Below are positions 1,308-36,669 of a DNA stretch of 40,660 bases, one piece after another. The notes beneath the pieces are model-generated. The model ran no database searches. It was not told the origin of the DNA and saw only the letters and a program-made list of their open reading frames with translations. This stretch comes from a virus. Made by a program: the position numbers and the translations under genes. The number at the start of each line of letters is the position of its first letter. Position 1 is the first letter of the stretch. Location: the UHGV virus genome UHGV-0383422, one strand, 5' to 3'.

Positions 1308-1324
1308 TATACCTTTAAGGTAAT
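1308..1324. promoter_or_regulatory. operator-like palindrome TATACCT-TTA-AGGTAAT upstream of int
   Basis: Member of the dispersed ATTACCT-N3-AGGTAAT family; 42-58 bp upstream of the int start codon; flanked by 9-bp inverted repeat TGACGGTAT/ATACCGTCA (1294-1302, 1323-1331). Confidence 0.45.
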
Positions 1325-1373
1325 ACCGTCACCTGTACCGACGAAAAATATGGTGTATAGTGAATAGAAATGA

Positions 1374-1410
1374 ATACATAAAAACAAAAACCCTCTGTTT
1401 TTACAGAGGG
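1374..1410 (-). terminator. rho-independent terminator after the lysis cassette
   Basis: Stem CCCTCTG/CAGAGGG (1391-1397/1404-1410) followed on the minus strand by TTTTTGTTTTTAT. Confidence 0.7.
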
Positions 1411-1583
1411 TTAAATTAGTATCTGAATAGGAATGAGTTGCTATGAGTTAGCTGTTAATCATTCCCACTCAATTATTTACGATAACCATAACCAATTGAG
1501 TGATAACATTTTTCCAAATCTCAATTTTTCCCGTACCGTTTTATATACCGTCACCGGAAATCAGTACCATGAAAAATGCCATG

Positions 1584-2066
1584 CTATCTGGTCAAAGTGT
1601 CGTACTGTTTTTCGCAGACTCTTCCGGCTTCGGCTGCCCGGTCAGCATACTCTGCCAGTTGTCTGTTTCTCTCGAGAGATTTGCTGAGCACGTCGGCAAG
1701 CAAAACTCCGGTGTCTGCGGCTGACGACCCAGCGCCGACAATGGCGTTATACTGCCTGAGCTGCTCACGGATGGCAAAGAGTTGTTGCTGCAACCGGCCA
1801 GCGCTAGCGGCAGCATCAAGAGCATCATTGCGCGCCTGGTCGATCCTCTGCTGAGCTTCACGTTCATTGGTCACTTTCTCCTGTTCGTAGTACTGACGAA
1901 CTTTGTCTTCTTCGGCTTTGCGGTCTTCTTCCGCCTGAGCATACCCGGCATCGTACTGGCGACTGCCGTGTATATTCCAGGCAACCACTCCTGATATGAC
2001 CAGAACAGCAAGCACTGCCACGATAAGAAACTGTTTCCAGTATGCTTTTACGAATGCCCAGATCAT
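1584..2066 (-). CDS. inner-membrane spanin subunit (Rz-like)
   Basis: 160 aa; N-terminal transmembrane segment then charged coiled-coil-like region; last gene of lysis cassette; start overlaps endolysin stop. Confidence 0.75.
1592..1828 (-). CDS. outer-membrane lipoprotein spanin subunit (Rz1-like), embedded in Rz in another frame
   Basis: ORF fully inside Rz; N-terminus [14 protein letters not shown] has signal peptide and lipobox (LAGC); Pro-rich mature part; start Met chosen at the internal MM. Confidence 0.65.
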   Translation of the reverse strand: MMLLMLPLALAGCSNNSLPSVSSSGSITPLSALGRQPQTPEFCLPTCSANLSRETDNWQSMLTGQPKPEESAKNSTTL

Positions 2067-2692
2067 ACCGCCAGCACCTTACTGGCAGTGATGTACCGCG
2101 CTCGCCGGTCGTCGATGCCGTTCCGGCCACCATTGATAATCAGAGTTACACGTGCAATATCGCCGGTATACTTCATGCATCCTTTGCTGGCGAAGAACCA
2201 CGCCGCGCTACGAGCCGCATATTCGTCCTGCGCCAGCAGTTCAGGGCTCTCCAGCAGGTCAACCTTCAGACCGTTTCCGCAATCACGATAGTTATTCAAA
2301 CCGGTAATCTGGATAAGTCCGCGCCCTCGGTAATTCCAGCCATCACCAGGGGCATTGTTCCCCATGCGTTTGCTGTATACCAGATTTGCGATCGCGCGCT
2401 GGCGCTCAAGTGGCAATGGTGGTTCACCAGCACGGCGCCCCAGTGCATTAGCCTGCCCCTGAGTGAGACGCCCAGCCCGAACGAAGTTAGCCAGTCCGCT
2501 GACACTGTAGTTGAAATTCTCCTGCAACCTGGTGAAGCCCCCAGACTCATGCCCGACTTGAGCAATAAACATTGCCTGATCTTCTGCTTTGCTGATACCA
2601 AACTCTTTCATCGCAGAAGTTATATGCGAGAACCAGCGTGCGGCCAGTGCCTCGCTGATACCAGCAGCTCGCTGGAATTGTTTAATCTCCAT
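2063..2692 (-). CDS. endolysin, glycoside hydrolase family 19 (chitinase-like lysozyme)
   Basis: 209 aa from internal Met ([11 protein letters not shown]...) with GAGGT Shine-Dalgarno upstream; GH19-like motifs ([22 protein letters not shown]); the listed 264-aa version overlaps the upstream gene and is rejected. Confidence 0.8.
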
Positions 2693-2990
2693 GTTTAGAC
2701 CTCGATACTTTAAAAATTTGAACGACGTTACCGCGCGTTTTAATAACCGCAGCCAGCATGACAGCGTTGATAATGACCTCAGATAAATCCACAGCCATTG
2801 GCGTACGTAACCAGATTGCATAGGCGACTCGAACAGGAATACTGGCCGCAGCAACAATCAGGAAATAAGCAAGCCATCCTCCCCACCTTCGATGTTGAGA
2901 GCCGTTACGCCGGAATGTGACAACGCGAATTGCTATGCCAGTGCAAATAACTGCATTGGTGATAAGCAAAAAAAACTCATGCGTTACCAT
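2682..2990 (-). CDS. second holin-like / lysis-accessory membrane protein
   Basis: 102 aa with about three hydrophobic helices; sits between holin and endolysin with overlapping ends. Confidence 0.5.
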
Positions 2991-3381
2991 CGTCTTTTCT
3001 CCCCGGAATTAACTCGCGTGGATTATCGGAACGGTGATAGAGCCATATACCAATACGCACAGCGACAATTGCTGACACGAATGCGCCTGCAGAGAAAACA
3101 ATCCCTTTTTCAAAAGAGTCCTGCGTGATGGTAGGGATCAGGCTGGCTATGCCGATAAGAATTGATGCTGCTGGTTTGTAAAAGAGAAGGCCGCAAAGAA
3201 AGCTGAGCATCGACAGGAGCACCCGGCGACGGATGGGGTACTCTACTGCAGAGGTAACAAAAATTACCGCCCCAGCCAAAGCCCCTAAAGCAACCTCCGG
3301 AGGGGCACCTGCAATAACCGCAGCAAGAGAACTAAAACTAAGCAACTGATTTAATTGCTCACTTGTTACTTGAGCAGACAT
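2977..3381 (-). CDS. holin-like membrane protein
   Basis: 134 aa, multiple transmembrane segments, charged C-terminus; first gene of lysis cassette; AGGAGAAAGT Shine-Dalgarno upstream. Confidence 0.6.
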   Translation of the reverse strand: MSAQVTSEQLNQLLSFSSLAAVIAGAPPEVALGALAGAVIFVTSAVEYPIRRRVLLSMLSFLCGLLFYKPAASILIGIASLIPTITQDSFEKGIVFSAGAFVSAIVAVRIGIWLYHRSDNPRELIPGRKDDGNA

Positions 3382-3662
3382 ACTTTCTCCTGTTTACTAT
3401 CTATAAGCCAGTCAATTATTGATGACTAAACCCGCATAGTAAACCATATATGAATCATTATTGTTCCATATCATATATCTCAATAAAAGTACTAATGATT
3501 TTACAGAACGAGCCAGCAGAGTGGGGGCAGTTGTACAGGAACCATAGACTTAATTTTGTATTTAATAATGCTATGGTGTAATAAACCTGAACATGTATTT
3601 AAAATACGTACTGATTCATGATAGAATTCAAAGATAACTTTTCACAAACTCCGTTTTTGATA

Positions 3663-3689
3663 CCCGCAAAATATTGCGGGCTTTTTTTT
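3663..3689 (+). terminator. intrinsic-terminator-like hairpin oriented for plus-strand transcription, at the tailspike 3' end
   Basis: Stem CCCGCAA/TTGCGGG followed by eight T on the plus strand; on the minus strand the hairpin is preceded, not followed, by the T/A run. Confidence 0.45.
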
Positions 3690-6807: not shown

Positions 6808-6910
6808 GTTAAATCTCCAGATAGTCGCAGCACCCGTTGCGCCGCATATCTGGTTATTCTATTACCTGGAAAACCACATATGGATAGAAAGGCTGTAAAT
6901 ACGAATAGAT

Positions 6911-6927
6911 ATTACCTTTCAGGTAAT
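6911..6927. promoter_or_regulatory. operator-like palindrome ATTACCT-TTC-AGGTAAT (perfect 7-3-7)
   Basis: In the divergent intergenic region between tailspike and the LexA-controlled gene. Confidence 0.5.
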
Positions 6928-6963
6928 TTGCAAAACGTGCTGGATAGCAAACAAATTATTTGA

Positions 6964-6983
6964 TACTGTATAAATATACAGTT
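6964..6983 (+). promoter_or_regulatory. LexA (SOS) box TACTGTATAAATATACAGTT
   Basis: Perfect CTGT-N8-ACAG (6966-6981) with AT-rich spacer, about 20 bp upstream of the start codon at 7003; -35-like TTGATA at 6960-6965. Confidence 0.8.
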
Positions 6984-7002
6984 ATTGCATGGAGAAGATA
7001 AG

Positions 7003-7260
7003 ATGCAGCAGTATCACTATCCACTGGAAGACGGATTTACCGAAAGGATTCACACGCCGGGAGGCGTCAGGTCACTGGTGGAGGGATCGCACTTGATGAA
7101 ATTACTCCGGGATCTCGATAAGGATGGATTTAATGTCGATGGCCCACTTGCCGAACTGACTGCACTGATTAACTACGTCACCAGCTCACAGATGTCTATG
7201 CAGGATCTGCAAACACATCTCGACTATTGTGCCGAACAATTACGAAAACAAACCCGGTAA
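7003..7260 (+). CDS. small SOS-controlled antirepressor-like protein
   Basis: 85 aa from ATG at 7003 with GGAGA Shine-Dalgarno; LexA box upstream; clearly homologous to the C-terminal approx 80 aa of the Bro-N protein at 8409-9119. Confidence 0.7.
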   Translation: MQQYHYPLEDGFTERIHTPGGVRSLVEGSHLMKLLRDLDKDGFNVDGPLAELTALINYVTSSQMSMQDLQTHLDYCAEQLRKQTR

Positions 7261-7266
7261 ATTTAA

Positions 7267-7284
7267 AGGCCGCAAGAGCGGCCT
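7267..7284. terminator. hairpin between convergent genes (possible bidirectional terminator)
   Basis: Stem AGGCCGC/GCGGCCT with AAGA loop; T-rich flanks on both sides. Confidence 0.45.
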
Positions 7285-8011
7285 ATCGTTTCGCTTTGTG
7301 CTCGTCCCAGCACGTTTTGCACCATGCCATTAAGCCGTCCGCATTTTGATTATTAGGGTAAAAGCTGGTCCGTTTTCTGCGGACATTACAAATTGGGCAC
7401 CACTTCATATGGCGTGTATTCTTTGGGCCATCGAGACACCTTGCACACCACTTAGTCAATCCATCTGGATTTTTTGACGATTTCCGGAATTTGTCATATG
7501 GAAGGTTTATTCTGCATCGCAAACACTGCTTGCGGCCACTTGAAACTCTGTTAGCTGATTCTTCTTTTGGCGGCGATACAGAAGGTATTCTTGCTGGCTC
7601 TGATACTGCCTGAGGTGCTTTTTTAGATGACTGAGACGATATGTCATCACCAGGGAATCTTCCATGATATGCCGGACGCATTGATACTCCAGGTGGAAGC
7701 TCAGCTGTAAACGGCTTTGGCTGAATCAGTTGCCTCTCTTTTGCTAACTCCTGCTGTTTACAATATGTCTGGATTACCGCACTATCATAAGCAGGAGGTG
7801 CGGAAATATTAGGCGCATTACCTCCAGTTTTTTGAAACTGAGTAGAGGTGTGTTCTATCACCTGTGTACGATTAATCGTTATCTCCCCATCTTCGGTCTT
7901 TATCGTTTTGTTATGATTAACGACCGTACGATCAGAGATCTTAGTCTTGTTCTGGTTGATAACGTAAATAATCACCGCAACCACACCAACAACTATCCAG
8001 AAAACTTCCAT
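7283..8011 (-). CDS. membrane-anchored protein with C-terminal tandem Cys4 zinc-ribbon repeats (function unknown)
   Basis: 242 aa; N-terminal transmembrane helix; two approx 30-aa repeats each CxxC...DGL..WC..C; GAGGAA Shine-Dalgarno. Confidence 0.65.
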   Translation of the reverse strand: MEVFWIVVGVVAVIIYVINQNKTKISDRTVVNHNKTIKTEDGEITINRTQVIEHTSTQFQKTGGNAPNISAPPAYDSAVIQTYCKQQELAKERQLIQPKPFTAELPPGVSMRPAYHGRFPGDDISSQSSKKAPQAVSEPARIPSVSPPKEESANRVSSGRKQCLRCRINLPYDKFRKSSKNPDGLTKWCARCLDGPKNTRHMKWCPICNVRRKRTSFYPNNQNADGLMAWCKTCWDEHKAKR

Positions 8012-8030
8012 TGCTTTTCCTCACAATAAC

Positions 8031-8047
8031 ATTACCTTAAAGGTAAT
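8031..8047. promoter_or_regulatory. operator-like palindrome ATTACCT-TAA-AGGTAAT (perfect)
   Basis: 20-36 bp upstream of the start codon of the 7283-8011 gene; a weaker copy ATTACCT-TTG-CGGTAAA lies at 8124-8140. Confidence 0.5.
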
Positions 8048-8408
8048 ATCTTGCTTTCAGGTGATCAAGCGTTAAACGCCACCAACCAAATACGGTTGAT
8101 TTTGATATTTCTCCGCGTTTATCATTACCTTTGCGGTAAATTTACATCGCACTCCTCTTGTGCCATAGTAATCGGGCACTGGCAAAATCCAGTGCCGGGA
8201 TTGGCGTCCCGGGTTACTAAGTGGCGCATACCACGCCAGACGTGGTTTTTTTATGCGTTAAGCACAGCTATATCCGAATTATGGTGGGCTGGGCAGGGGT
8301 CCGAAAGGACGCCGGTACCACTTAGGCCGGTACGCCAACCTTGTCCAGTTCACCACCAGTAATTGGCGTTGCGGTGGTGATTAAAATCACTAAGTGGAGA
8401 TAACCACC

Positions 8409-9119
8409 ATGGCTAATGCTCAAACTTCCATCTTCAAATTTGAATCTGTTAACCCTATCCGTTCCATCATTATCGATGGCCAACCATGGTTTGTAGCCCA
8501 AGACGTTTGTAGTGCGCTGCGTATCCAAAACGTCACCCAAGCACTTGAAAAACTGGATGATGATGAAAGGTCTATGTTCAACATAGGGCATGAACATCGT
8601 GCAATTTTTGACAGCCGAGTAAAAGAGATCAACATCATCTCCGAGTCAGGCCTCTACACACTGATCCTCCGCTGCCGCGACGCAGTGACACCAGGCACTA
8701 TCCCCTACCGCTTTCGTAAATGGGTTACGGGTGAGGTTCTTCCTCAGATCCGCCGCACCGGAAGCTACATTAAAAACTCGCTCCCGCAGGAAGAACGCAT
8801 AAAGATGGTTGCCGACCAGGTGGCCAACGCCACGGCGTCAGCAGTAATGCAGGCGATGAAGATAGAGAACAAAACCTACAGCGCCCCACTGAATCCCGGC
8901 TACCGCAGCCTGATTCATTCGCCGTCTGGTGTTCTCGGCCTGACGGAGAACTCACTGCTGATGAATCTGCTGAACCAGTTACAGGACGACGGGCACGACG
9001 TATCGGGCGCGGCGGCGGAGCTGACCACCATGTTCTGCTACATCGTCGGTGTGAGCAAATGCCTGCGTGATATCCAGACCCACGCGGAATACATCAACGA
9101 CAAGGCAGGGTTCTTCTGA
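8409..9119 (+). CDS. Bro-N domain antirepressor-like protein
   Basis: 236 aa from ATG at 8409 with GGAGA Shine-Dalgarno; N-terminal Bro-N/KilA-N-like region; C-terminal domain homologous to the 7003-7260 product. Confidence 0.7.
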   Translation: MANAQTSIFKFESVNPIRSIIIDGQPWFVAQDVCSALRIQNVTQALEKLDDDERSMFNIGHEHRAIFDSRVKEINIISESGLYTLILRCRDAVTPGTIPYRFRKWVTGEVLPQIRRTGSYIKNSLPQEERIKMVADQVANATASAVMQAMKIENKTYSAPLNPGYRSLIHSPSGVLGLTENSLLMNLLNQLQDDGHDVSGAAAELTTMFCYIVGVSKCLRDIQTHAEYINDKAGFF

Positions 9120-9126
9120 CGGGCGG

Positions 9127-9190: not shown

Positions 9191-9207
9191 ATTACCTTAA
9201 AGGTAAA
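9191..9207. promoter_or_regulatory. operator-like palindrome ATTACCT-TAA-AGGTAAA
   Basis: Immediately upstream of the GGAGG Shine-Dalgarno and ATG (9219) of the 55-aa gene. Confidence 0.5.
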
Positions 9208-9218: not shown

Positions 9219-9386
9219 ATGACAGCGTTGAAAAATCGTACTCAGCACAATGAACAAGCCAAGCAATGCTGGGATGTCATTGGAAAAGTTATGCTTGGCC
9301 GCGCAAGCAAAGAGCGCGACAAGGATATGGTTTACCAGACAGGAACATCTTTCAGCGACTTCAAGGCGGCATTTCGCTCCAAATAG
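9219..9386 (+). CDS. hypothetical small protein (55 aa)
   Basis: ATG with strong AAAGGAGG Shine-Dalgarno; hydrophilic; not in the supplied track (below 60 aa); overlaps the N-terminal extension of listed ORF 9266-9847, which I reject. Confidence 0.55.
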   Translation: MTALKNRTQHNEQAKQCWDVIGKVMLGRASKERDKDMVYQTGTSFSDFKAAFRSK

Positions 9387-26279: not shown

Positions 26280-26367
26280 ATCAATGACTCCGTACGCAAT
26301 TAAATTATTACCAATTTAACCATATATGATTTATTTATCGTAGGTAGTTGACATTTAACGCACAAAT

Positions 26368-26384
26368 TATTACCTTTCAGGTAA
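26368..26384. promoter_or_regulatory. operator-like palindrome ATTACCT-TTC-AGGTAAC
   Basis: Dispersed motif family member, in the terminase-portal accessory island. Confidence 0.45.
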
Positions 26385-26706
26385 CCAAAGAGTTCATTCC
26401 GGTTACTAACCTGACTGGCTTGTCGTTAAATTGAACAGGTGGAGTGAGCTTTTATTTTGAGCAGTACGGCGTATGGCACATGCGCCGATAGCGGTCTGGA
26501 TACGTTTAAGGGGCACCCTCCCTTGCTCGGGCAAACGAACCAGGTAGCCGGAATGTGCAAGTCGAGCGGTTTTATTCCGCGCACGGGGATTCACCATCCC
26601 GGCGATTCGGTGTGACGCCTCGGAAGAGACGAGGGTACAACGATGAGAGCATTTATGGAGCCGCGACAAAGTGTGGCGCCTTAACAGGCTAAGTGCTCTC
26701 AGCGTT

Positions 26707-26783
26707 GTGGCATTAGCTCAGTTGGACAGAGCAACCGCCTTCTAAGCGGTTGGTCGCAGGTTCGAATCCTGCATGCCACGCCA
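26707..26783 (+). tRNA. tRNA-Arg (anticodon UCU)
   Basis: Folded by hand: acceptor GTGGCAT/ATGCCAC, D-arm GCTC/GAGC, anticodon stem ACCGC/GCGGT with loop CTTCTAA (anticodon TCT), T-arm GCAGG-TTCGAAT-CCTGC, discriminator G and CCA. Confidence 0.9.
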
Positions 26784-28882: not shown

Positions 28883-29553
28883 TGATTACCATCCTGACGT
28901 TCTTTGAGTCGCTTCCTGGCTGCTGCTATGCGATCAGCAATTGTCACATTCACATTAACATCCAGACGTTCTTTGAACGCGTTGACATCAACATGCTTAC
29001 CAATCAGCTCAAGGTTCTTCACCTTGTCAGGCCATTTAATTTTTTTGAGGATTGTCTCTATCGAATCCTCGTTCATGTTCATGATGGTCGATGACAGATC
29101 AAAGCCACTAAGCGTAGTGCGCCAGATTTTCGGCCACTCACGGATTGGTTTAAGGCTCCCATCGTCGTTGAGGATGTCGATCACGTCCATCTGGTCGATC
29201 TCCACCAGGCGCATGAGAACGTAATCAGCACTGACGCGCATTCGTTTGTTGCGCTCCTCCATCAACTCGGCAATCCGTTTTTGAATGCGTTCATCGCGCA
29301 TCATGACACTGGCTTTAACTGCCGCTGTATTTGGGGAGAATCCTGCGTTAATCGCTGCCTGAGTCTGGTTTTCAGGCGTTTTGATGTATGACTGGCAATA
29401 AGCCTCCTGCATTGCTGTTAGTGGCTTAAATTGCGTTGATTTGCGTTTATAGGTTTTAGGTTCAGCAGGCATCATAACCACCGTGGTAATAGTTACCGTT
29501 GTGGTAATAGTACCATGCAAAATAAAGCCGCCATAGTTGGCGGCAGTATTCAA
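28879..29553 (-). CDS. terminase small subunit
   Basis: 224 aa; N-terminal HTH-like region (AMQEAYCQSYIKTPENQTQAAINAGFSPNTAAVKA); likelier start may be the internal MM at 29475, as the listed N-terminus is encoded by a direct-repeat region. Confidence 0.8.
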   Translation of the reverse strand: MNTAANYGGFILHGTITTTVTITTVVMMPAEPKTYKRKSTQFKPLTAMQEAYCQSYIKTPENQTQAAINAGFSPNTAAVKASVMMRDERIQKRIAELMEERNKRMRVSADYVLMRLVEIDQMDVIDILNDDGSLKPIREWPKIWRTTLSGFDLSSTIMNMNEDSIETILKKIKWPDKVKNLELIGKHVDVNAFKERLDVNVNVTIADRIAAARKRLKERQDGNQ

Positions 29554-29585
29554 AACCCATCAAATTCATCATGCATAATCTACTC

Positions 29586-29597
29586 GTGACATGTCAC
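29586..29597. repeat. 12-bp perfect palindrome GTGACATGTCAC (copy 3 of 3)
   Basis: Exact palindrome between the upstream gene stop and the small-terminase start region. Confidence 0.6.
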
Positions 29598-29941
29598 ACT
29601 ATTAATTTCGTTTCATGCCAGCCTTTAGTCACCCAGCATTGCGAGTCACCATTACACGGGCATGAATTAACTGGAACTCTCTCGCCGCACTTACCGCAAC
29701 ATTTTCTGCTGATCGATTTTATACGCCCGCGCACGCGTGCATCATCCTGGCGGATCAGTAACGCGATGTACTCGGCCATTTCATAGGGATCGCGACCAGG
29801 GCGCCGGGCGGCGCAGTTCCGCGCCAGCATTTCCTGCTCCTGCTTATCCAGCACCAGTTCAATTTTGCGCTCACCGGCGGCGGACTGCCGAGCGCGCTGC
29901 GCGGCTTTGCGTTCTGCGGGGGATTTAGCCACGAATCGCAC
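29594..29941 (-). CDS. hypothetical protein with Cys-rich C-terminus (start uncertain)
   Basis: Listed ORF starts at GTG; internal ATG (MLARN...) has AGGAG Shine-Dalgarno; C-terminus CCGKCGERVPVNSCPCNGDSQCW; GC-rich segment. Confidence 0.4.
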   Translation of the reverse strand: MRFVAKSPAERKAAQRARQSAAGERKIELVLDKQEQEMLARNCAARRPGRDPYEMAEYIALLIRQDDARVRGRIKSISRKCCGKCGERVPVNSCPCNGDSQCWVTKGWHETKLIV

Positions 29942-30829: not shown

Positions 30830-30839
30830 GTGTTACTCC

Positions 30840-31103
30840 TTAACCCGCAGTGCTTTCAACTGATGAGGGGAACAAAATCTTTTCATCAAACCCTGCATTC
30901 ATATCATTGACAGCAACACACCAATCCATTGACGAACGATTATCAAGAGCCTCCATGATTTCATCCATGCGGCGCAGGTCATACAGGTAAATGCTTTTAT
31001 CGCCAATGGTGTAAAAACCAATTTTTTTCGGTGATGGGCAGCGATCAAGAACGTCCTGTAATTCGCTCAACCATGCTTGTTCTTTTTTTGTCAAAGTTGC
31101 CAT
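30840..31103 (-). CDS. hypothetical protein
   Basis: 87 aa; start lies directly after the conserved junction repeat. Confidence 0.5.
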   Translation of the reverse strand: MATLTKKEQAWLSELQDVLDRCPSPKKIGFYTIGDKSIYLYDLRRMDEIMEALDNRSSMDWCVAVNDMNAGFDEKILFPSSVESTAG

Positions 31104-31104
31104 A

Positions 31105-31596: not shown

Positions 31597-31598
31597 TC

Positions 31599-32285
31599 TC
31601 ACTCTCCTTTGATGCGAATGCCAGCGGCACGGGAATCATTCCATCGCTTTACTTCTTCACGAATTACGTCAATGCATTCTTTCGAATCCATTAGGTAATC
31701 TTCATCAAAAAGCCTTTCCTGTTCGTTTTCTATCGCAACAATGATTGCTTCAACTAACTTTTGTGCCTGAGAACCACTTTCTAACTCTGCAATGCGCTTC
31801 TCTGCGGCTTCCAGCTTCTCGCGCATATCGTCAACGTACTCGACCAGAGATCCGCCAGCAGGAATTTCGCACTCCTCGACCAGTTGGAAGTAGATATCAG
31901 CTGCGGCCCGTGTGTTGCTATGCCTAGCGTCGCCCATCTCACCTTCACGAAGAGCATCGCGTTCGGCGGTAAGATTGGCTATTTTGCTGTCTTTGCCTTC
32001 CAGCTCAACGCGAAGCCTCCCAACCGTAAGCGCAATATCCTCGTTCTCCTGGTCGCGGCGTTTGATGTATTGCAGGTTTCTTTCCCGTTCATCCAGCAGC
32101 GTCAGCACGGTTTCTGGTCCGGTCAGAAATTTGAAGGCGTTGAGCGCATCAATATCCACACCATAATCTTTAAGTTCCTGTTCACTTAACAAATCATCAT
32201 CAGCTGGCAACATTAACAGGCGTTCCATTGCTGGAATTGCACGTTCTGCCGCCTCACGCAGTGCCTGATAGTTAATTTTGGTCAT
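31599..32285 (-). CDS. Ea22-like early protein
   Basis: 228 aa, acidic coiled-coil-like; C-terminal GIRIKGE; prophage early-region position. Confidence 0.55.
   Translation of the reverse strand: MTKINYQALREAAERAIPAMERLLMLPADDDLLSEQELKDYGVDIDALNAFKFLTGPETVLTLLDERERNLQYIKRRDQENEDIALTVGRLRVELEGKDSKIANLTAERDALREGEMGDARHSNTRAAADIYFQLVEECEIPAGGSLVEYVDDMREKLEAAEKRIAELESGSQAQKLVEAIIVAIENEQERLFDEDYLMDSKECIDVIREEVKRWNDSRAAGIRIKGE
31600..31624. repeat. 25-bp direct repeat (junction copy 2)
   Basis: Identical to 31106-31130. Confidence 0.7.
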
Positions 32286-32286
32286 A

Positions 32287-32586
32287 TCACATCACCCTGA
32301 AGCCGTTGCATTTACGTAAAAAATCGCAGATATAGCCCTTCATTTTTTCGTGCCAATCTCGATCATTCCCATTGCACCAACCATCAGGTGGAGTCCAGTT
32401 TTCTATCAGAGCAGCCATTTTCTTTGCTTTCGCCGGAGTAGCTGTTGCGGTATCGCAGTAATGACGAGTGTCAACCAACGTATCCATACCATCGATATCA
32501 AGTACGCAAAACCATGTGTGATTCGGCATTTCAACAGATGGTATTTGTTGCCCGCGTCGACGTTTATCAATAAGACATACAGTCAC
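32287..32586 (-). CDS. hypothetical protein
   Basis: 99 aa; coupled in early operon. Confidence 0.45.
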   Translation of the reverse strand: MTVCLIDKRRRGQQIPSVEMPNHTWFCVLDIDGMDTLVDTRHYCDTATATPAKAKKMAALIENWTPPDGWCNGNDRDWHEKMKGYICDFLRKCNGFRVM

Positions 32587-33188
32587 TGGTTGCCTCCTTT
32601 GCGAAGCTGGGCAGCAAAGTCAACTAACCACTCAGTCATTTCAACCTTCCCTACCAGGTCTGAACCAGGGTGCATACAGCAATCACTCTGCGCCGCTTTG
32701 AAATCCTTATACTCATATTCTTGGGCCACCAGATTTTTTGCAGCTTCTATAGCAGCATCCACCCCCTGCGCCCGAACTTCAGCCAGGAAAGCGTCGGTGG
32801 CTTGGGTTTCGATATCGTTAATTTCAGGAAGAATCTCTTCCCATGTAGCGATATCGCCATTCAAATGCCATCCGGCAATTCCACTGGAGTTATCCGCAAC
32901 ACTGCGAACGGCTTCAATAGTTTCATGCATTGCCGCATTCTCCGCTGCCAGCGCCGAAAACTTCTCGTGTGCCAACTTAACAGCCGCATCAGCCTGCTTA
33001 ATTGACTCAATCGCTTTCTGCTGGTCTTCGGCCAGCGCATTAGCACGCACCAGTTGCACTTCCAGTTGCGTTGCCAAATCGCTGATCAGCTTTGCCACAC
33101 TGCGCATATCAACGGCACCACATTCTGCTTTCAGTTCCGAAGCCATCTCATGCCCGGCGGCAACTAACCCTTTGATATTACTTTCCAT
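32583..33188 (-). CDS. hypothetical protein
   Basis: 201 aa, acidic/Ala-rich; early operon. Confidence 0.5.
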   Translation of the reverse strand: MESNIKGLVAAGHEMASELKAECGAVDMRSVAKLISDLATQLEVQLVRANALAEDQQKAIESIKQADAAVKLAHEKFSALAAENAAMHETIEAVRSVADNSSGIAGWHLNGDIATWEEILPEINDIETQATDAFLAEVRAQGVDAAIEAAKNLVAQEYEYKDFKAAQSDCCMHPGSDLVGKVEMTEWLVDFAAQLRKGGNQ

Positions 33189-33249
33189 CTTTACCCTCGC
33201 TTATCCACATAACTTATTGATTACATTGATAACTAAAAAGATCGTCGAT

Positions 33250-33594
33250 TCAGAACTCTTCGATGTTCCAGCCACCACCTGCTTTCTTTGGTTTAACCGT
33301 TACCCCGATGATTCGGAACGGATACTGATCTGCGGCGACTTTGGTTTTCACCCTGGCGTCGTCGGTCCAGAAACCTTTCACTTCGTGCAGTTCCATCTCT
33401 CCGGTGGCGAGCATCACAGCGAAATCGGGCGTATAGAACGTGTTGTCAGCTAACCGCAGCTTGATACCCTCGAATCGATACCAGGCGATTTCCCCTGCAC
33501 GTTTACGCTGCTCAAGGTGCTGGCAATACGCAGATTCTGTTTTGTTCATCTGGCCTGTTTTGAGTCGACCAAGAGCCTGTATCTGTTTTCTCAT
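33250..33594 (-). CDS. hypothetical protein (possible small nuclease-like nin-region protein)
   Basis: 114 aa; start codon two nt from an operator-like palindrome that supplies its GAGGT Shine-Dalgarno. Confidence 0.5.
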   Translation of the reverse strand: MRKQIQALGRLKTGQMNKTESAYCQHLEQRKRAGEIAWYRFEGIKLRLADNTFYTPDFAVMLATGEMELHEVKGFWTDDARVKTKVAADQYPFRIIGVTVKPKKAGGGWNIEEF

Positions 33595-33596
33595 GA

Positions 33597-33613
33597 TTTA
33601 CCTCTAAGGTAAT
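33597..33613. promoter_or_regulatory. operator-like palindrome TTTACCT-CTA-AGGTAAT
   Basis: Dispersed motif family; overlaps the ribosome-binding region of 33250-33594. Confidence 0.45.
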
Positions 33614-33658
33614 TAAAAACCATATAAGACACGAAATCAATAGAGTTTAGAATATTTT

Positions 33659-33675
33659 GTTACCTTGTAGGTAAT
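33659..33675. promoter_or_regulatory. operator-like palindrome GTTACCT-TGT-AGGTAAT
   Basis: Second copy 62 bp from the previous one, between replication and nin-like modules. Confidence 0.45.
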
Positions 33676-33711
33676 TGTTGAGGCGTAAAAAAATGCGCTA
33701 TCGCGCTGGTA

Positions 33712-34488
33712 TTACTTGATAAATCCTGCCGCCTTTCCCCGCCTGTATTCCTCCATCAGCCACTGCGCCGGTGTTATTCCCCCAAGGGTGGCGGCGTTAG
33801 GCATGCACCCGAAACTTCGCCCTGGTGGATGGTAAACGTCTCTCCCTGTGTCCGGAGGTGTACTCATGGGCTCTGGCTTTGCCTGTATGCTGATCACCGG
33901 ATCGGGTATCTGCTGTCCGGAAGCCACCTTTTTCGCCCAATCATCGAGCAGCCTGCGCGCGTGTTTCTCAACCTCACTCTCGCTAAGCTGGCGCTGATAC
34001 ATTGCACGACGGGTATCACATACGACCCAGTACATAACCGGATGCCGCCACGGGAATCTTTCGGGACCACCAGGATATAAACTTTTTTCCTTGCTGTACC
34101 GGTGAAACTCCGCCATCACATCGTCAATGGTGACGCCAAGAACCATCTTGCTGTCTTTGCACCACTTGATGAATTGCCCTGGCGACGGCCAGAACGGAGA
34201 TTCACTGGCGCGGGCGTGGCGCATACCAGCGTTAACCTGTTCCATTGTAGTGATCCCATTCTCCAGAAACGCAAGCATCCATTGCTTACGGAATTCATTA
34301 AGTTTGTTCTGCTCCCTTATGGTCGAAACGCTTGCAGGAAATGCAGCCTGTAACTGGACAAATAGTTCATTGAAAATTCTAGCAACCTGCTCCTTTTTGC
34401 CATTGCTGTCACGCCGCTCTTCATGCACAGCAACACCATGCTCACGTAAGCGATCGTACTCATTGAGAAGTTCTGGAGTTGATTTCAT
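33712..34488 (-). CDS. replication protein (P-like helicase-loader candidate)
   Basis: 258 aa, downstream of and overlapping the initiator-like gene; no Walker A; assignment by position. Confidence 0.5.
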   Translation of the reverse strand: MKSTPELLNEYDRLREHGVAVHEERRDSNGKKEQVARIFNELFVQLQAAFPASVSTIREQNKLNEFRKQWMLAFLENGITTMEQVNAGMRHARASESPFWPSPGQFIKWCKDSKMVLGVTIDDVMAEFHRYSKEKSLYPGGPERFPWRHPVMYWVVCDTRRAMYQRQLSESEVEKHARRLLDDWAKKVASGQQIPDPVISIQAKPEPMSTPPDTGRDVYHPPGRSFGCMPNAATLGGITPAQWLMEEYRRGKAAGFIK

Positions 34489-35302
34489 CCCACACCCCTT
34501 CTATCCAGTCAGTGTTATTCCAGTCAAGCTCATCGCTTTTCCCGGCATTTTTTGATTTTCCCCTGATATGATTTACGTGCCTGGCGAATTTTTGTTCCCA
34601 CTGAACCTGCGTGAACACTTTGCCCTCAGCCATCCAGTAATCCCGGAATGCAGCAAGTTCAGCAGGTGTAAATTCCGGTTCCGGCAGGGCCGTTCCCCAC
34701 AGCGCAGCACGCCGCCGAAAATCTGGCGACGGTAGCCAGCCATCTGTCATCGGAAATTTCCCGATGGGTTCACTCAGGCCATCCAGAAATTCAGGTTCTG
34801 CCACCTGCAACGGCGTACTGTTCGCTTCACTGGTCGGAGCACCCTCGCGCACGTGCGCTATGTGTGGGGTTTTATATATATCTTCCTCTTCCTCTGGTAA
34901 CTCCTTTTGTAACGCTGTTGGCGTTACTTTTTGCGTTACTCGTTTTCTATGCTCTGCCACTCTTCTATTCGTAAGTGCACGTTTTTTCGATGATTCTCCA
35001 TTATGTCGCTCAAAGTTTGGAAGAATTAGTTTGCCGTCATGATAAGCAAGCCATCCGACGCTAATGAGGGCGTCAGCAAATCCTGTAATAAAAGCGAGTC
35101 TATCAAGTACTCCTTTTGTAACGCTGCCAGCGTTACCGTCTATTGTTTGCTGGTCAGCCCATGCCCATATACGAACCAGCTTTCCAAGAACAGCATCTGG
35201 ATCAATACCCAGAATTTCTGCTATCTGAAAAATTTCAGGTTTATCAGGAGTGATAACTTCAACCTTAATCCAGCTGCTTGCCATAGGTTTCCCCTCTTGC
35301 AC
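34460..35302 (-). CDS. replication initiator / replisome organizer (O-like) with DnaT-like C-terminal region
   Basis: 280 aa; contains internal iteron-like repeats in different reading frames plus an AT-rich tract. Confidence 0.6.
   Translation of the reverse strand: MQEGKPMASSWIKVEVITPDKPEIFQIAEILGIDPDAVLGKLVRIWAWADQQTIDGNAGSVTKGVLDRLAFITGFADALISVGWLAYHDGKLILPNFERHNGESSKKRALTNRRVAEHRKRVTQKVTPTALQKELPEEEEDIYKTPHIAHVREGAPTSEANSTPLQVAEPEFLDGLSEPIGKFPMTDGWLPSPDFRRRAALWGTALPEPEFTPAELAAFRDYWMAEGKVFTQVQWEQKFARHVNHIRGKSKNAGKSDELDWNNTDWIEGVWDEINSRTSQ
34895..35138. repeat. candidate origin: iteron-like repeats (GTAACGC/GCGTTAC) and AT-rich tract inside the initiator gene
   Basis: 26-bp repeat TCCTTTTGTAACGCTG..GCGTTAC at 34901-34926 and 35111-35136, each an inverted repeat; extra GCGTTAC at 34932-34938; TTTTATATATAT at 34870-34881. 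Confidence 0.5.
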
Positions 35303-35477
35303 TCTTTAGTGCACAAGCAAATTCATTACGATGGCGGTTGGCGCTATTCATTGCACATTCAACACATGTTCCGTTCAGAACATACCTTTCAGAGAGATGG
35401 CCGTGACGGCACCGCTTTCCTGTGAAATAGCGATTTAACCCGGCTTTTGCGGCCTCCATTCTGGTTACTATCTTCAA
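35265..35477 (-). CDS. hypothetical small Cys/His-containing protein
   Basis: 70 aa; CRHGH...CVEC...C pattern suggests metal binding; between cro-like and replication genes. Confidence 0.45.
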   Translation of the reverse strand: MKIVTRMEAAKAGLNRYFTGKRCRHGHLSERYVLNGTCVECAMNSANRHRNEFACALKSARGETYGKQLD

Positions 35478-35571
35478 TTTTTCCGCCCCTTTTTGTTATT
35501 GATATTGGCTATTTTGCACAATTGGAAAATTTGATCAACCAGATTTGGTTTTTTATTACCCTTAAGGTGCG

Positions 35572-35603
35572 AATAGATATGAAAAGACCGCCGGATGGCG
35601 GTC
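35572..35603 (-). terminator. rho-independent terminator immediately after the cro-like gene
   Basis: Stem GACCGCC/GGCGGTC with GGAT loop followed on the minus strand by TTTTCATATCTATT. Confidence 0.6.
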
Positions 35604-35625
35604 TACAGAGGGTTGTGGCTGGATA

Positions 35626-35856
35626 TCATGAGTAGAAGAAGTATGCCAGTTCTGCTTTTGAGCGCAGCCATTGTCTTGTTTTACAGGCTTTAAAAAGCCC
35701 ATTCATCAATACTTTACCTGGCATTTTGCGCTTGCCTGTTAAGTGAGTCTGGATATAGTGACTCGTCGTTCCGGCTTCCTGTGCGAAGGCTTCACGCTCA
35801 TCCGGAGTAAGTGCAAGCCAGTGCTTTTTGAAATCGAAATGTCCGTTATCGCTCAT
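35626..35856 (-). CDS. Cro-like HTH regulator
   Basis: 76 aa; HTH-like segment FAQEAGTTSHYIQTHLTGKRK; divergent from the CI-like gene across an operator cluster. Confidence 0.6.
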   Translation of the reverse strand: MSDNGHFDFKKHWLALTPDEREAFAQEAGTTSHYIQTHLTGKRKMPGKVLMNGLFKACKTRQWLRSKAELAYFFYS

Positions 35857-35891
35857 AGCTATTGCCTGATATTTATTTCAGATAATAAATA

Positions 35892-35956
35892 TTCACCCAT
35901 AAGGTAACAAAAATCAAGGATAGTTACCTATGAGGTGCATTTACCTGTTGGGTAAT
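35892..35956. promoter_or_regulatory. operator cluster: three palindromes of the ATTACCT-N3-AGGTAAT family at the cro/cI divergent region
   Basis: 35892-35908 TTCACCC-ATA-AGGTAAC; 35923-35939 GTTACCT-ATG-AGGTGCA; 35940-35956 TTTACCT-GTT-GGGTAAT. Confidence 0.6.
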
Positions 35957-36010
35957 ATTGCTTTAAATTGAATCATCTACTGATTCATATATGAGGCGAT
36001 TTTCCAGAAA

Positions 36011-36595
36011 ATGAAAAGTATCCAGGACGTCCGCAGGCAAAATCTCAACGACTTGATCGACCGTGAATTCAATGGTGTTCAGACGCGGATGGCAGAAAAA
36101 CTTGGAACTCAGGCAAATCTGGTAAACCGCTGGGCTCTTGGCAAGAAGGTTATCGGCGACCAGGTTGCACGAAAAATTGAAGCTGCCGCCAATAAACCCC
36201 GTAACTGGCTTGATATTGATCGTTCGCTTTCTCAGGAGGGTTTTCAGCCTGTCGGCCCGAGCGATATAGGTCAGCTGGCGGCTCACAACCTGGAACGCTG
36301 GATGAGCGAAAGCCGCGACCTTTCAACACAGGGAAAACTTCACCGCGCATCCGGCGTCGCCCAGGTGACAATCAGCCGCCTGTTAAACAATGAGGTCAGC
36401 GTTTCCATTTCCACCCTGGAGAATGTTGCATCCGCATTCGGGCGTCACGGATATGAACTACTGATTCACCCGCACGACCCTGCGACTATCAACTATGACC
36501 GCTCACGCTACGCATTGTTACCCGAAACCGAGAAAGCAAAGATCGAAAGTTACATTGAATTTGTCATCAACCAGAACGAAAAAAGCAAACAATAA
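36011..36595 (+). CDS. CI-like repressor candidate (HTH; no LexA-type self-cleavage domain evident)
   Basis: 194 aa; HTH-like segments; no Ser-Lys peptidase motif; divergent from cro-like gene; own terminator. Confidence 0.55.
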   Translation: MKSIQDVRRQNLNDLIDREFNGVQTRMAEKLGTQANLVNRWALGKKVIGDQVARKIEAAANKPRNWLDIDRSLSQEGFQPVGPSDIGQLAAHNLERWMSESRDLSTQGKLHRASGVAQVTISRLLNNEVSVSISTLENVASAFGRHGYELLIHPHDPATINYDRSRYALLPETEKAKIESYIEFVINQNEKSKQ

Positions 36596-36616
36596 AACTA
36601 TAGTTTTCAGTAAGTA

Positions 36617-36641
36617 AGCCGCCTCATGGCGGCTTTTTTAT
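36617..36641 (+). terminator. rho-independent terminator after the CI-like gene
   Basis: Stem AGCCGCC/GGCGGCT with TCAT loop followed by TTTTTTA. Confidence 0.8.
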
Positions 36642-36652
36642 TGCCAGATAGA

Positions 36653-36669
36653 TTACCTTACGGGTAATT
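36653..36669. promoter_or_regulatory. operator-like palindrome ATTACCT-TAC-GGGTAAT
   Basis: Between the CI terminator and the promoter of the rightward recombination operon; weaker related copy at 36714-36730. Confidence 0.5.

What the first reader, a model, noticed from the sequence alone, without database searches (positions are those of the whole stretch)
1308..36669. Dispersed 17-bp palindromic operator motif (ATTACCT-N3-AGGTAAT): three copies at the cro/cI switch and single copies next to many other genes
The arms ATTACCT/AGGTAAT with a 3-bp spacer recur, perfectly or with one or two mismatches, at 1308, 6911, 8031, 8124, 9191, 26368, 33597, 33659, 35555, 35892, 35923, 35940 and 36653. 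All are intergenic, and a specific 14-base arm pattern is expected far less than once in 40 kb by chance. Three copies are clustered between the divergent Cro-like and CI-like genes, the classic position of an immunity operator. The other copies sit next to int, the LexA-controlled gene, the zinc-ribbon gene, the 55-aa gene, the tRNA island, the nin-like region and the rightward early promoter. That looks like one repressor silencing many accessory promoters in the lysogen, in the manner of stoperators, rather than a two-cluster OL/OR layout. Alternative: since the 3' arm contains AGGT, the transcribed copies could fold as hairpins masking ribosome-binding sites (for example at 33597).
Basis: seen in the sequence. 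Interest (0 to 1): 0.7.

Follow-up and report, generated by a model that had tools for sequence, protein, structure and literature searches.

The report
Repressor operators scattered across a phage
The repeated 17-bp palindrome is real and is almost certainly the binding site of this ε15/phiV10-like phage's immunity repressor, placed at the start of nearly every transcription unit; the same scattered sites are already annotated in the related phage ε15, so this is a solid but essentially known feature.

Summary
ATTACCT-N3-AGGTAAT occurs 10 times at ≤2 mismatches against 0.08 expected. Its core TTACC-N5-GGTAA occurs 11 times exactly against about 0.05 expected. All 16 sites I accept lie in the roughly 11% of the window outside ORFs.

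The window is a Uetakevirus (ε15/phiV10/ZX5-like) genome. Its 194-aa "CI-like" protein is a full-length homologue of the SPC32H Rep protein (PDB 5D50), a tetrameric, non-cleavable repressor inactivated by the antirepressor Ant. The ε15 GenBank record already annotates seven dispersed "repressor" binding sites with this motif. Five other phages and six prophages carry the motif at the same syntenic positions.

The layout is an OR triple, an OL pair, and extra sites at other operon starts. OL and the nin-like region share one cassette: operator, 18 nt, −35, 17 nt, then a −10 overlapping a second operator. Operator centres are 62 bp apart in almost all of the 12 genomes.

The RNA-hairpin reading is rejected and strict stoperator membership is not met. 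Rep binding itself was not tested here.

Verdict: already known in kind, well supported, low-to-moderate interest. The conserved 62-bp promoter clamp is the most interesting residue.

The parts
36011..36595 (+). rep: immunity repressor, 194 aa, with an N-terminal HTH DNA-binding domain and a C-terminal tetramerisation / Ant-binding domain
   Evidence: Full-length match to SPC32H Rep, PDB 5D50 (E 3.5e-42). There is no S24 peptidase domain. The 'NLVNRW' helix is invariant in the six aligned phage Reps. The ZX5 protein, 99.5% identical, blocks lytic transcription when overexpressed.
35626..35856 (-). cro-like small HTH regulator, 76 aa, first gene of the leftward early operon
   Evidence: Matches phrog_35 'transcriptional repressor' (E 5.6e-13). 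It is 58-100% identical across six phages and divergent from rep.
35892..35908 (.). OR-1 operator TTCACCCATAAGGTAAC, lying in the core of the putative cro promoter
   Evidence: A minus-strand promoter is predicted at 35910-35882. A conserved TTGATT -35 lies just upstream. The position is conserved in 12 genomes.
35923..35939 (.). OR-2 operator GTTACCTATGAGGTGCA (weak right arm)
   Evidence: It directly abuts OR-3 and the position is conserved in the related phages.
35940..35956 (.). OR-3 operator TTTACCTGTTGGGTAAT, overlapping the -35 of a putative rep promoter (TTTACC-17-TTAAAT)
   Evidence: The exact core is conserved about -70 from the rep start in all genomes. The promoter assignment is my inference from the sequence.
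36652..36668 (.). OL-1 operator ATTACCTTACGGGTAAT, located after the rep terminator and 18 nt upstream of the -35
   Evidence: The terminator is at 36616-36635.
36687..36715 (+). Rightward early promoter TTGACA-17-AATTAT, driving gp37-like, recE/recT and downstream genes
   Evidence: 10 of 12 consensus matches. The same cassette is seen in six phages.
36714..36730 (.). OL-2 operator ATTACCCCAACGGTAAC, overlapping the last two bases of the -10 and the +1 region; its centre is 62 bp from OL-1
33659..33675 (.). nin-region distal operator, after the terminator of the replication genes
33597..33613 (.). nin-region proximal operator. It overlaps the -10 (TTTAAT) of a TTGATT-17-TTTAAT promoter, and its right arm supplies the Shine-Dalgarno sequence of the DUF1064 / resolvase-like gene (ATG at 33594)
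   Evidence: The 62-bp spacing holds in 11 of 12 genomes (61 bp in L011).
29474..29508 (.). Tandem weak operators (29474-29490 and 29492-29508, centres 18 bp apart), between a terminator and the terS start codon
   Evidence: The same tandem is seen in ε15, phiV10, Tyrion and ZX5 (SPC32H keeps the first site and a degenerate second) and in two prophages. The first ε15 copy is annotated as a repressor site.
26369..26385 (.). Operator upstream of the gp3/portal structural operon
   Evidence: It is conserved in six phages although the upstream flank diverges. The ε15 equivalent, 2931-2947, is annotated as a repressor site.
6911..6927 (.). Perfect operator in the divergent region between the tail fibre gene (start 6807, minus strand) and ant
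   Evidence: The ε15 equivalent, 19895-19911, is annotated as a repressor site.
6964..6983 (.). LexA box TACTGTATAAATATACAGTT, just upstream of ant
   Evidence: Read directly from the sequence. It matches the CTGT-N8-ACAG consensus, which I cite from established knowledge.
7003..7260 (+). ant: small antirepressor, homologue of SPC32H Ant
   Evidence: 88% identity to SPC32H Ant (E 1e-56). LexA-controlled Ant inactivating the repressor is cited.
8031..8047 (.). Perfect operator 20 nt upstream of the start of the minus-strand 242-aa zinc-ribbon / EndoVII-like gene (7283-8011)
8124..8140 (.). Operator overlapping the -10 of the TTGATT-18-TATCAT promoter that drives IsrK-like sRNA, C4 RNA and the Bro-N antirepressor
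   Evidence: The site is conserved in phiV10 (20496) and ZX5 (34695).
8176..9119 (+). Second antirepressor module: IsrK-like sRNA (8176-8252), C4 antisense RNA (8277-8360) and the Bro-N antirepressor (8409-9119)
   Evidence: Rfam scores of 67.7 and 66 bits, both above the gathering thresholds. Bro-N matches Pfam at 1e-19. The ZX5 ORF4 antirepressor promotes lytic growth.
9191..9207 (.). Operator abutting the RBS of the 55-aa cargo gene (ATG at 9220)
   Evidence: ZX5 has different cargo in this slot but also carries an operator there (35760).
1308..1324 (.). Operator variant (one arm reads TATACC) 42 nt upstream of the int start, about 140 bp from the attP core (1457-1473)
   Evidence: The same variant arm sits at the same position in all six phages and in L009 and L011.
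35555..35571 (.). Degenerate site after the cro terminator and before the gp40-like gene
   Evidence: Better copies occupy this position in ZX5, phiV10, Tyrion and BUCT711.

Best explanation
The 17-bp palindrome, consensus A-TTACC-(T)WWW(A)-GGTAA-T, is the operator of the phage's immunity repressor Rep (36011-36595). Rep is a homologue of the tetrameric, non-cleavable SPC32H/ε15 repressor. The small Cro-like protein probably binds at least the OR copies as well.

In the lysogen, Rep would occupy these sites:
1. An OR triple covering the divergent cro and rep promoters.
2. An OL pair.
3. An identically built pair in the nin-like region.
4. Sites at the head of the terS, head/structural, tail-fibre/ant, Bro-N antirepressor, cargo-gene and int units.

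One protein would then directly shut almost every transcription unit. These units are separated by terminators rather than joined by antitermination.

At OL and in the nin region, two operators with centres 62 bp apart (about six helical turns, so on the same face) bracket the -35 and -10. This suits one tetramer, or two cooperating units, clamping the promoter.

Induction is by antirepression rather than cleavage. DNA damage removes LexA from the box in front of ant, and Ant strips Rep from DNA. A second antirepressor, the Bro-N protein behind IsrK and C4 RNAs, itself sits behind a Rep operator, which would give positive feedback.

Shown here: the motif statistics, the site positions, the synteny, and the Rep and Ant homology. 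Inferred: binding itself, which promoters are repressed, and the clamp.
For: - Enrichment and placement: 10 matches against 0.08 expected; 11 exact cores against about 0.05; top palindrome in an unbiased count; all sites lie outside ORFs.
- Prior annotation: ε15 GenBank AY150271.2 marks 7 dispersed 'protein_bind: repressor, lysogeny' sites. Their sequences are ATTACC-N5-GGTAAT.
- Repressor identity: the window Rep is a full-length homologue of SPC32H Rep 5D50. Secondary literature describes that Rep binding palindromic sites as a tetramer and being disassembled by Ant. The N-terminal HTH is the most conserved part of six Reps, with NLVNRW invariant, which matches the invariant half-site.
- Synteny: six phages and six prophages from Escherichia, Salmonella, Enterobacter, Klebsiella, Citrobacter, Erwinia, Superficieibacter and Scandinavium have sites at about -118, -87 and -70 (OR), about +640 and +700 (OL), and a 62-bp pair about 2.4 kb away.
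- Half-site follows the Rep N-domain: Pseudomonas phage PseuP_224 has an S24-type cI with a homologous N-domain and no Cro-like homologue. It carries ATTACC-N4-GGTAAT on both sides of its cI gene. Distant homologues with a different recognition helix lack the motif.
- DNA-type conservation: the arms are invariant in sequence, the central base is A or T in 106 of 112 symmetrised cases, and positions 7/11 do not covary.
- Functional support: overexpressing the 99.5%-identical ZX5 repressor cut endolysin and holin transcripts by more than 99.9%.
- Induction circuit: Ant is 88% identical to SPC32H Ant and has a LexA box.
Against: - No binding data for this phage were available to me.
- The primary ε15 and SPC32H papers are not in the library. 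I could not confirm which operator sequence was used in their EMSA and structural work, and the ε15 sites may be bioinformatic predictions.
- The motif does not vary across the genus, so repressor-operator covariation could not be tested properly. The PseuP_224 case is a single example.
- The Cro-like protein is equally conserved, so it cannot be excluded as the main binder of some sites.
- For the late operons and int I found no convincing sigma-70 promoter next to the operator. Repression there is assumed.
- The strongest OR site overlaps the putative rep promoter, which is unusual for a λ-like switch.
- The nin cassette is conserved as a whole (80-93% identity per segment). The operators are therefore not isolated islands of conservation there.
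Confidence: 0.85

Rival explanations
1. The dispersed copies are mainly targets of the Cro-like protein, or of another lytic-phase regulator. They would be used for temporal control during lytic growth, for example turning early units down or late units on, rather than for silencing by Rep in the lysogen.
For: The Cro-like protein is an HTH 'transcriptional repressor' family member. It is even more conserved than Rep across the genus, as the motif is. Operators at the late operons sit just upstream of weak promoter-like sequence and about 40-50 bp upstream of a shared ATAT(G/A)TGGTT box, where an activator might act.
Against: ε15 annotates the sites as repressor sites. PseuP_224 keeps the half-site and the Rep-type N-domain but has no Cro-like homologue. 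In classical switches Cro and repressor share operators, so this rival mostly adds to the main explanation rather than replacing it.
Confidence: 0.25
2. Stoperator-like roadblocks: the sites lie inside transcription units and bound repressor blocks elongating RNA polymerase rather than initiation.
For: Some sites lie downstream of a terminator or promoter-like element and directly on the RBS: the terS tandem 29474/29492, 9191, 35555, and the third OL site in ε15, SPC32H and BUCT711.
Against: The sites are palindromic, so they have no orientation. At OR, OL, nin and IsrK they overlap or bracket promoter hexamers. There are about 16 sites and all lie at unit boundaries, none between genes within the long structural operon.
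Confidence: 0.2
3. The transcribed palindromes act as RNA hairpins that mask ribosome-binding sites or act as processing or termination signals.
For: The 3' arm contains AGGT or GAGG and abuts start codons at 33597, 9191 and the terS tandem. Every copy can form a 6-7-bp stem.
Against: The stems are weak, at -4.2 to -6.9 kcal/mol. The arms are conserved in sequence, not in pairing: positions 7/11 are complementary in 19 of 56 unique sites against 17.8 expected, and 8/10 in 13 against 15.8. Mismatched sites break pairing on one arm only. Several copies lie upstream of the -35 or in divergent promoter regions, and the predicted +1 falls inside the proximal operators, so the full hairpin would not be transcribed.
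Confidence: 0.03
4. The sites are recognition sequences for another DNA transaction, such as packaging (pac/terminase), integration (Int arm sites) or replication, and not for transcription control.
For: One tandem sits immediately before terS, where ε15 and phiV10 records begin. One copy lies in the attP-int interval next to annotated Int and IHF sites in ε15.
Against: The same motif forms the OR and OL clusters around the repressor gene in every genome and brackets promoter hexamers. A single packaging or integration function would not need about 16 sites at operon starts.
Confidence: 0.05

Closest known systems
Repressor-binding sites annotated in Salmonella phage ε15 (GenBank AY150271.2; Kropinski et al. 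2007, Virology 369:234; paper not readable here)
   Same: Same genus and same 17-bp palindrome ATTACC-N5-GGTAAT. The positions also match: upstream of terS, upstream of gp3/portal, the ant/tailspike divergent region, OL, and the region between the replication genes and the nin-like genes.
   Different: The window's Rep is only 43% identical to the ε15 repressor, and the window prefers T7/A11 (ACCT...AGGT). The ε15 record lists 7 sites and omits the OR triple; my scan finds 15 in ε15 and 16 in the window. The window adds sites at the IsrK/C4/Bro-N module, a zinc-ribbon gene and a 55-aa cargo gene.
SPC32H Rep-Ant antirepression system (PDB 5D50 and 5D4Z; Kim & Ryu 2013 J Virol; Kim et al. 2016 PNAS; known to me through secondary citations and memory)
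   Same: Rep is homologous over its full length (E 3.5e-42). Ant is 88% identical and has a LexA box in front of it. There is no S24 autocleavage domain. The tetrameric Rep binds palindromic operators.
   Different: Binding and structure were determined for the Salmonella protein, not for this E. coli-type Rep. I could not check which operators were used. The window also has a second, Bro-N-type antirepressor module that SPC32H lacks in its annotation.
λ-type OR/OL immunity operators
   Same: Three sites lie between the divergent cro-like and repressor genes and overlap both promoters. A second cluster lies on the other side of the repressor gene and controls the other early operon.
   Different: The repressor is not an S24 autocleaving CI. 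OL has two sites bracketing the promoter with centres 62 bp apart rather than three adjacent sites. There are about 10 further sites elsewhere in the genome.
Dispersed operators of other temperate phages: P1 C1 operators, φC31 conserved inverted repeats, mycobacteriophage L5 gp71 stoperators (from my own knowledge)
   Same: One immunity repressor has many sites spread over the genome, including, as in P1, one controlling a c4-ant antirepressor operon.
   Different: The proteins and motifs are unrelated. P1 and L5 sites are asymmetric. L5 stoperators are oriented and act on elongation within operons, whereas these sites are symmetric and mostly sit at promoters.

Membership tests
Uetakevirus (ε15/SPC32H-type) Rep operators | 17-bp palindrome ATTACC-N5-GGTAAT with an A/T-rich centre | tested here: met
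   The window sites and the annotated ε15 sites share the invariant TTACC/GGTAA arms, and position 9 is A or T in 106 of 112 cases.
Uetakevirus (ε15/SPC32H-type) Rep operators | A cognate Rep protein encoded next to the OR and OL clusters, with a conserved N-terminal HTH | tested here: met
   (5D50, E 3.5e-42, residues 1-190). (NLVNRW invariant in the six phage Reps).
Uetakevirus (ε15/SPC32H-type) Rep operators | Sites at positions syntenic with those annotated in ε15 | tested here: met
   The terS, gp3, ant/tail-fibre, OL and nin positions all match.
Uetakevirus (ε15/SPC32H-type) Rep operators | Rep physically binds the sites and represses the adjacent promoters | not testable with these tools
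   Only indirect support: ZX5 repressor overexpression abolishes lysis-gene transcripts, and secondary descriptions of SPC32H Rep binding palindromic DNA.
Uetakevirus (ε15/SPC32H-type) Rep operators | Induction through a LexA-controlled small Ant rather than repressor cleavage | tested here: met
   Ant homologue at 88% identity. LexA box at 6964-6983. No S24 domain in Rep. The mechanism itself is taken from the literature.
Stoperators (mycobacteriophage L5 gp71 type) | Asymmetric site with one orientation relative to transcription | tested here: not met
   The sites are palindromic, so orientation is undefined.
Stoperators (mycobacteriophage L5 gp71 type) | Located within transcribed operons, downstream of promoters, blocking elongation | tested here: inconclusive
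   The OR, OL, nin and IsrK sites overlap or bracket promoter hexamers. The terS tandem, 9191 and 35555 lie in leaders or after terminators. No TSS data are available.
λ-like CI/Cro switch | Multiple operators between divergent repressor and cro genes, plus a second cluster at the other early promoter | tested here: met
λ-like CI/Cro switch | Repressor with an S24 (LexA-like) autocleavage domain | tested here: not met
   Pfam finds only HTH families. The C-terminal half aligns to the SPC32H Rep tetramerisation / Ant-binding domain.
Regulatory RNA hairpin / RBS-sequestering element | Pairing maintained by covariation, stable structure, and location within transcripts | tested here: not met
   (-4 to -7 kcal/mol; 7/11 complementary in 19 of 56 against 17.8 expected). 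Several copies lie upstream of the -35.

The most novel reading that the evidence does not exclude
A single non-cleavable tetrameric repressor directly gates essentially every transcription unit of the phage, with no antiterminator cascade. At OL and the nin region it does so through a fixed 'promoter clamp': two operators whose centres are 62 bp apart bracket the -35 and -10, and one tetramer binds both, wrapping the promoter in a six-turn microloop. The geometry is conserved in 12 genomes across at least eight enterobacterial genera. If the SPC32H work did not already describe this, it would be one of the tightest conserved repression loops known, and a compact, portable operator-promoter-operator cassette.
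Probability: 0.3. Interest if true: 0.5.

Novelty: already known. Interest (0 to 1): 0.27.

Why it matters
The result lets the regulatory circuit of phiV10/ZX5-like E. coli phages be annotated properly. These phages are used as O157:H7 reporter phages and occur as prophages in pathogenic E. coli. Neither the phiV10 record nor the ZX5 paper defines operators.

It also predicts which cargo genes are silent in the lysogen: the Bro-N antirepressor module, a zinc-ribbon/EndoVII-like gene and a 55-aa gene.

Finally, it links structural work on the tetrameric SPC32H Rep to a concrete genome-wide operator architecture. The 62-bp paired operators around promoters can be tested directly and could be reused as a tight repressible promoter cassette.

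Tried and rejected
- Primary papers. I tried to read Kropinski 2007 (PubMed id and PMC2698709), Kim & Ryu 2013 (PMC3807360) and Kim 2016 (PMC4983836). None is held. Full-text searches for the motif string and for 'ε15 operator', 'phiV10 operator' and 'SPC32H operator' gave only secondary mentions.
- Wrong spacer. A first core scan used N7 instead of N5 and found nothing. It was corrected.
- Repressor-operator covariation within the genus. This was impossible because the half-site and the recognition helix are invariant in all 12 genomes.
- Distant Rep N-domain homologues. Those in Paraburkholderia, Hydrogenovibrio and Thiomicrospira lack the motif, but I could not define their own operators with confidence. 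Only PseuP_224 gave a clean related palindrome.
- Operators as conservation islands. In the nin cassette the whole cassette is conserved at 80-93% per segment, so this test is uninformative there.
- Sigma-70 promoters at the late-operon and int sites. The consensus scan found promoter-like sites at chance frequency and none convincing at 26369, 6911 (tail-fibre side) or 1308.
- RNA hairpin reading. Rejected.

Full report
**Observation**

The pattern ATTACCT-N3-AGGTAAT occurs 10 times at ≤2 mismatches, where dinucleotide-preserving shuffles give 0.08. It occurs 15 times at ≤3 mismatches against 1.1 expected. The invariant part is TTACC-N5-GGTAA, with 11 exact copies against about 0.05 expected.

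I also counted every 5+5 palindrome with a spacer of 1-9 in the window. This motif ranks first with 11 copies; the best unrelated palindrome has 3.

The sites at 35892 and 35923 have 4 mismatches and 35555 has 5, not one or two. They still occupy positions where related genomes carry a site or a degenerate site.

All 16 sites lie in the 10.9% of the window that a generous ATG-ORF cover leaves free.

**What the window is**

The region 33000-38000 is 97-99% identical to Escherichia phages vB_EcoP_ZX5, TL-2011b, HEMP4 and phiV10. These belong to the genus Uetakevirus, whose type phage is Salmonella phage ε15.

It has HTH domains but no S24 autocleavage domain.

Secondary literature describes SPC32H Rep as a tetramer that binds palindromic DNA. 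Each DNA-binding pair is formed by N-terminal domains from different dimers. A tetrameric antirepressor, Ant, disassembles it, and its C-terminal domain has a p53-like, looping-type tetramerisation fold.

The window encodes an Ant homologue at 7003-7260, 88% identical to SPC32H Ant. A near-consensus LexA box, TACTGTATAAATATACAGTT, lies at 6964-6983. This fits the LexA → Ant → Rep induction route cited for SPC32H.

For ZX5, whose repressor is 99.5% identical, overexpression abolished free phage and cut endolysin and holin transcripts by more than 99.9%. That paper did not define operators.

**The motif is already annotated in the genus**

The ε15 GenBank record carries seven 'protein_bind: repressor, lysogeny' features:
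- upstream of terS;
- upstream of gp3/portal;
- between gp19 (the ant homologue) and the tailspike gene;
- three between the repressor gene and gp37;
- one between the replication genes and the RuvC-like gene.

Their sequences are ATTACC-N5-GGTAAT. From memory, the ε15 genome paper (Kropinski et al. 2007) gives a consensus of this form. I could not open the paper, so the record is my evidence.

**Comparative evidence**

The exact core occurs 8-11 times in each of six genomes: the window, ε15, SPC32H, phiV10, Tyrion (Enterobacter) and BUCT711 (Klebsiella). Expectation is about 0.05 per genome.

Six prophages recovered through Rep homology have sites at the same offsets from rep. They come from Superficieibacter, Ca. 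Erwinia dacicola, Klebsiella, two Citrobacter species and Scandinavium. The offsets are:
- about -118, -87 and -70 (OR);
- about +640 and +700 (OL);
- a pair about 2.3-3.4 kb upstream.

The Rep proteins are as little as 41-45% identical overall. Their N-terminal HTH domain is the best-conserved part, and the helix NLVNRW is invariant in the six aligned phage Reps (one prophage has TLVNRW). That explains why the half-site does not vary.

More distant homologues with a different helix (Paraburkholderia, Hydrogenovibrio, Thiomicrospira) lack the motif.

Pseudomonas phage PseuP_224 is informative. Its cI has a related N-domain fused to a classical S24-type C-terminus. It has ATTACC-N4-GGTAAT at -73, -34 and +828 relative to its cI start, and it has no homologue of the Cro-like protein. 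The half-site therefore tracks the Rep-type N-domain. This is one example, so I treat it as suggestive.

**Anatomy in the window**

*OR.* Three sites lie between the cro-like gene and rep.
- 35892 sits in the core of the leftward promoter. A promoter is predicted at 35910-35882, and a conserved TTGATT -35 lies just upstream.
- 35923 and 35940 abut each other.
- 35940 covers TTTACC, which together with a conserved TTAAAT 17 nt downstream would form a rep promoter. This promoter is my inference.

*OL.* The rep terminator (36616-36635) is followed by operator 36652, then 18 nt, then TTGACA, 17 nt and AATTAT. The last two bases of the -10 are the first two bases of operator 36714.

*nin-like region.* The same cassette occurs after the terminator of the replication genes: operator 33675-33659, 18 nt, TTGATT, 17 nt, TTTAAT, then operator 33613-33597. 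The right arm of that operator serves as the Shine-Dalgarno sequence for the DUF1064/resolvase-like gene.

*Spacing.* Operator centres are 62 bp apart in both cassettes in nearly all 12 genomes; a few show 61 or 63 bp. That is about six helical turns. OR-1 to OR-2 is 31 bp, and 8031 to 8124 is 93 bp. All three spacings are close to multiples of three helical turns.

*Single and tandem sites.*
- Directly before the terS ATG, after a terminator (29474/29492).
- Upstream of the structural operon (26369).
- Between the tail-fibre gene and ant (6911).
- 20 nt before a minus-strand zinc-ribbon/EndoVII-like gene (8031).
- On the -10 of a TTGATT-18-TATCAT promoter (8124). This promoter drives an IsrK-like sRNA, a C4 antisense RNA and a Bro-N antirepressor.
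- On the RBS of a 55-aa cargo gene (9191).
- 42 nt before int (1308).
- After the cro terminator (35555).

ZX5 carries different cargo after its antirepressor, yet it also has an operator in that slot.

**DNA site or RNA element?**

The hairpins are weak, at -4.2 to -6.9 kcal/mol. I collected 56 unique exact-core sites from the 12 genomes and examined them:
- Positions 7/11, which would extend the stem, are complementary in 19 sites against 17.8 expected by shuffling.
- Positions 8/10 are complementary in 13 against 15.8 expected.
- The central base is A or T in 106 of 112 symmetrised cases.

Degenerate sites lose one arm rather than changing both. Several sites lie upstream of the -35. This is the signature of a dimeric DNA-binding protein, not of a selected RNA structure.

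**Mechanism proposed**

Rep, and probably the Cro-like protein at OR, binds these operators. In the lysogen, one repressor would directly silence the two early operons and the nin/packaging, structural, tail-fibre, int and accessory units. The accessory units include a second antirepressor module. These units are separated by terminators.

The 62-bp operator pairs bracketing promoters fit a tetramer with two DNA-binding units clamping the promoter.

Induction goes through LexA-controlled Ant. Derepression of the Bro-N module would reinforce it.

The statistics, positions, synteny and homologies are shown here. Binding, the identity of the repressed promoters and the clamp are inferred. Confidence in the operator assignment is about 0.85. 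Confidence in the clamp is about 0.3-0.45.

**Weak points**
- I found no convincing sigma-70 promoters next to the operators of the late operons or int.
- The strongest OR site overlaps the putative rep promoter.
- The nin cassette is conserved as a whole, so its operators are not islands of conservation.
- The Cro-like protein cannot be separated from Rep by comparative data.

**Comparison and novelty**

This is the operator system of ε15 and SPC32H-type phages: same genus, same motif and same positions. I therefore file it as already known.

The contrast with an OL/OR layout and the stoperator analogy are not. The sites are symmetric and mostly promoter-associated, and both OR and OL exist.

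Three details may be new:
- the fuller site list (16 sites here, and 15 by my scan in ε15 against 7 annotated, with the OR triple missing from that record);
- the conserved 62-bp operator-promoter-operator cassette;
- Rep control of the IsrK/C4/Bro-N antirepressor module.

Noticed in passing
window 8176-8252 and 8277-8360 (+), upstream of 8409-9119: An IsrK-like Hfq-binding sRNA with its own terminator (Rfam RF01394, 67.7 bits) is followed by a C4 antisense RNA (RF01695, 66 bits). Both lie directly upstream of a Bro-N antirepressor gene. This resembles a P1 immI / Gifsy-1 isrK-anrP module, so the phage has two antirepressor systems: LexA-controlled Ant and this one.
   Followed up: partly
window 3442-3451, 6872-6881 and 26318-26327 (all minus strand); related sequence at about 33620-33629: A box ATAT(G/A)TGGTT lies 40-70 nt upstream of the start codons of the lysis, tail-fibre and gp3/structural operons. 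It is also present at the ε15 equivalents, with one copy (tailspike) more diverged. It could be a late-promoter or activator element. The raw pattern count (5 against 2.6 expected) is not significant on its own; the placement is what stands out.
   Followed up: partly
L018 (Pseudomonas phage PseuP_224) 5922-5935, 5961-5974 and 6823-6836: This phage's S24-type cI shares the Rep N-terminal HTH domain. Its gene is flanked by ATTACC-N4-GGTAAT palindromes: the same half-site as in the window with a spacer one base shorter.
   Followed up: partly
L002 (ε15) 33340-33356, 33357-33373 and 33387-33403: The ε15 GenBank record annotates seven repressor sites but none between the repressor gene and gp39. 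Three motif copies, two with exact cores, sit there in the same arrangement as the window's OR.
   Followed up: yes
window 29527-29600 (minus strand), upstream of terS: A palindromic promoter-like element (GTGACATGTCAC ... CATGAT) is followed by a strong terminator (GCCGCCAACTATGGCGGC plus a T-run) and then by the tandem operators and the terS ATG. This promoter-terminator-gene layout resembles a late antitermination unit, but no Q-like gene was identified.
   Followed up: no
window 7283-8011 (-): This 242-aa gene has C-terminal zinc-ribbon / endonuclease VII / Lar-like matches (phrog_6762, phrog_1035, phrog_5558). It is absent from ZX5 and phiV10, lies between ant and the IsrK module, and has its own perfect operator 20 nt upstream, which looks like a mosaic insertion.
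   Followed up: partly
window 26707-26783 (+) and 26400-26700: A tRNA-Arg(TCT) gene lies on the strand opposite to the structural genes. The roughly 300-bp GC-rich non-coding stretch between it and operator 26369 has no Rfam match. ε15 annotates an RNase III site in the equivalent region.
   Followed up: no
window 1457-1473 (minus strand): The attP core ATTGAGTGGGAATGATT reported for phiV10, ε15 and ZX5 is intact. The window is therefore the unintegrated (phage or circularly permuted) form, not a prophage junction.
   Followed up: yes
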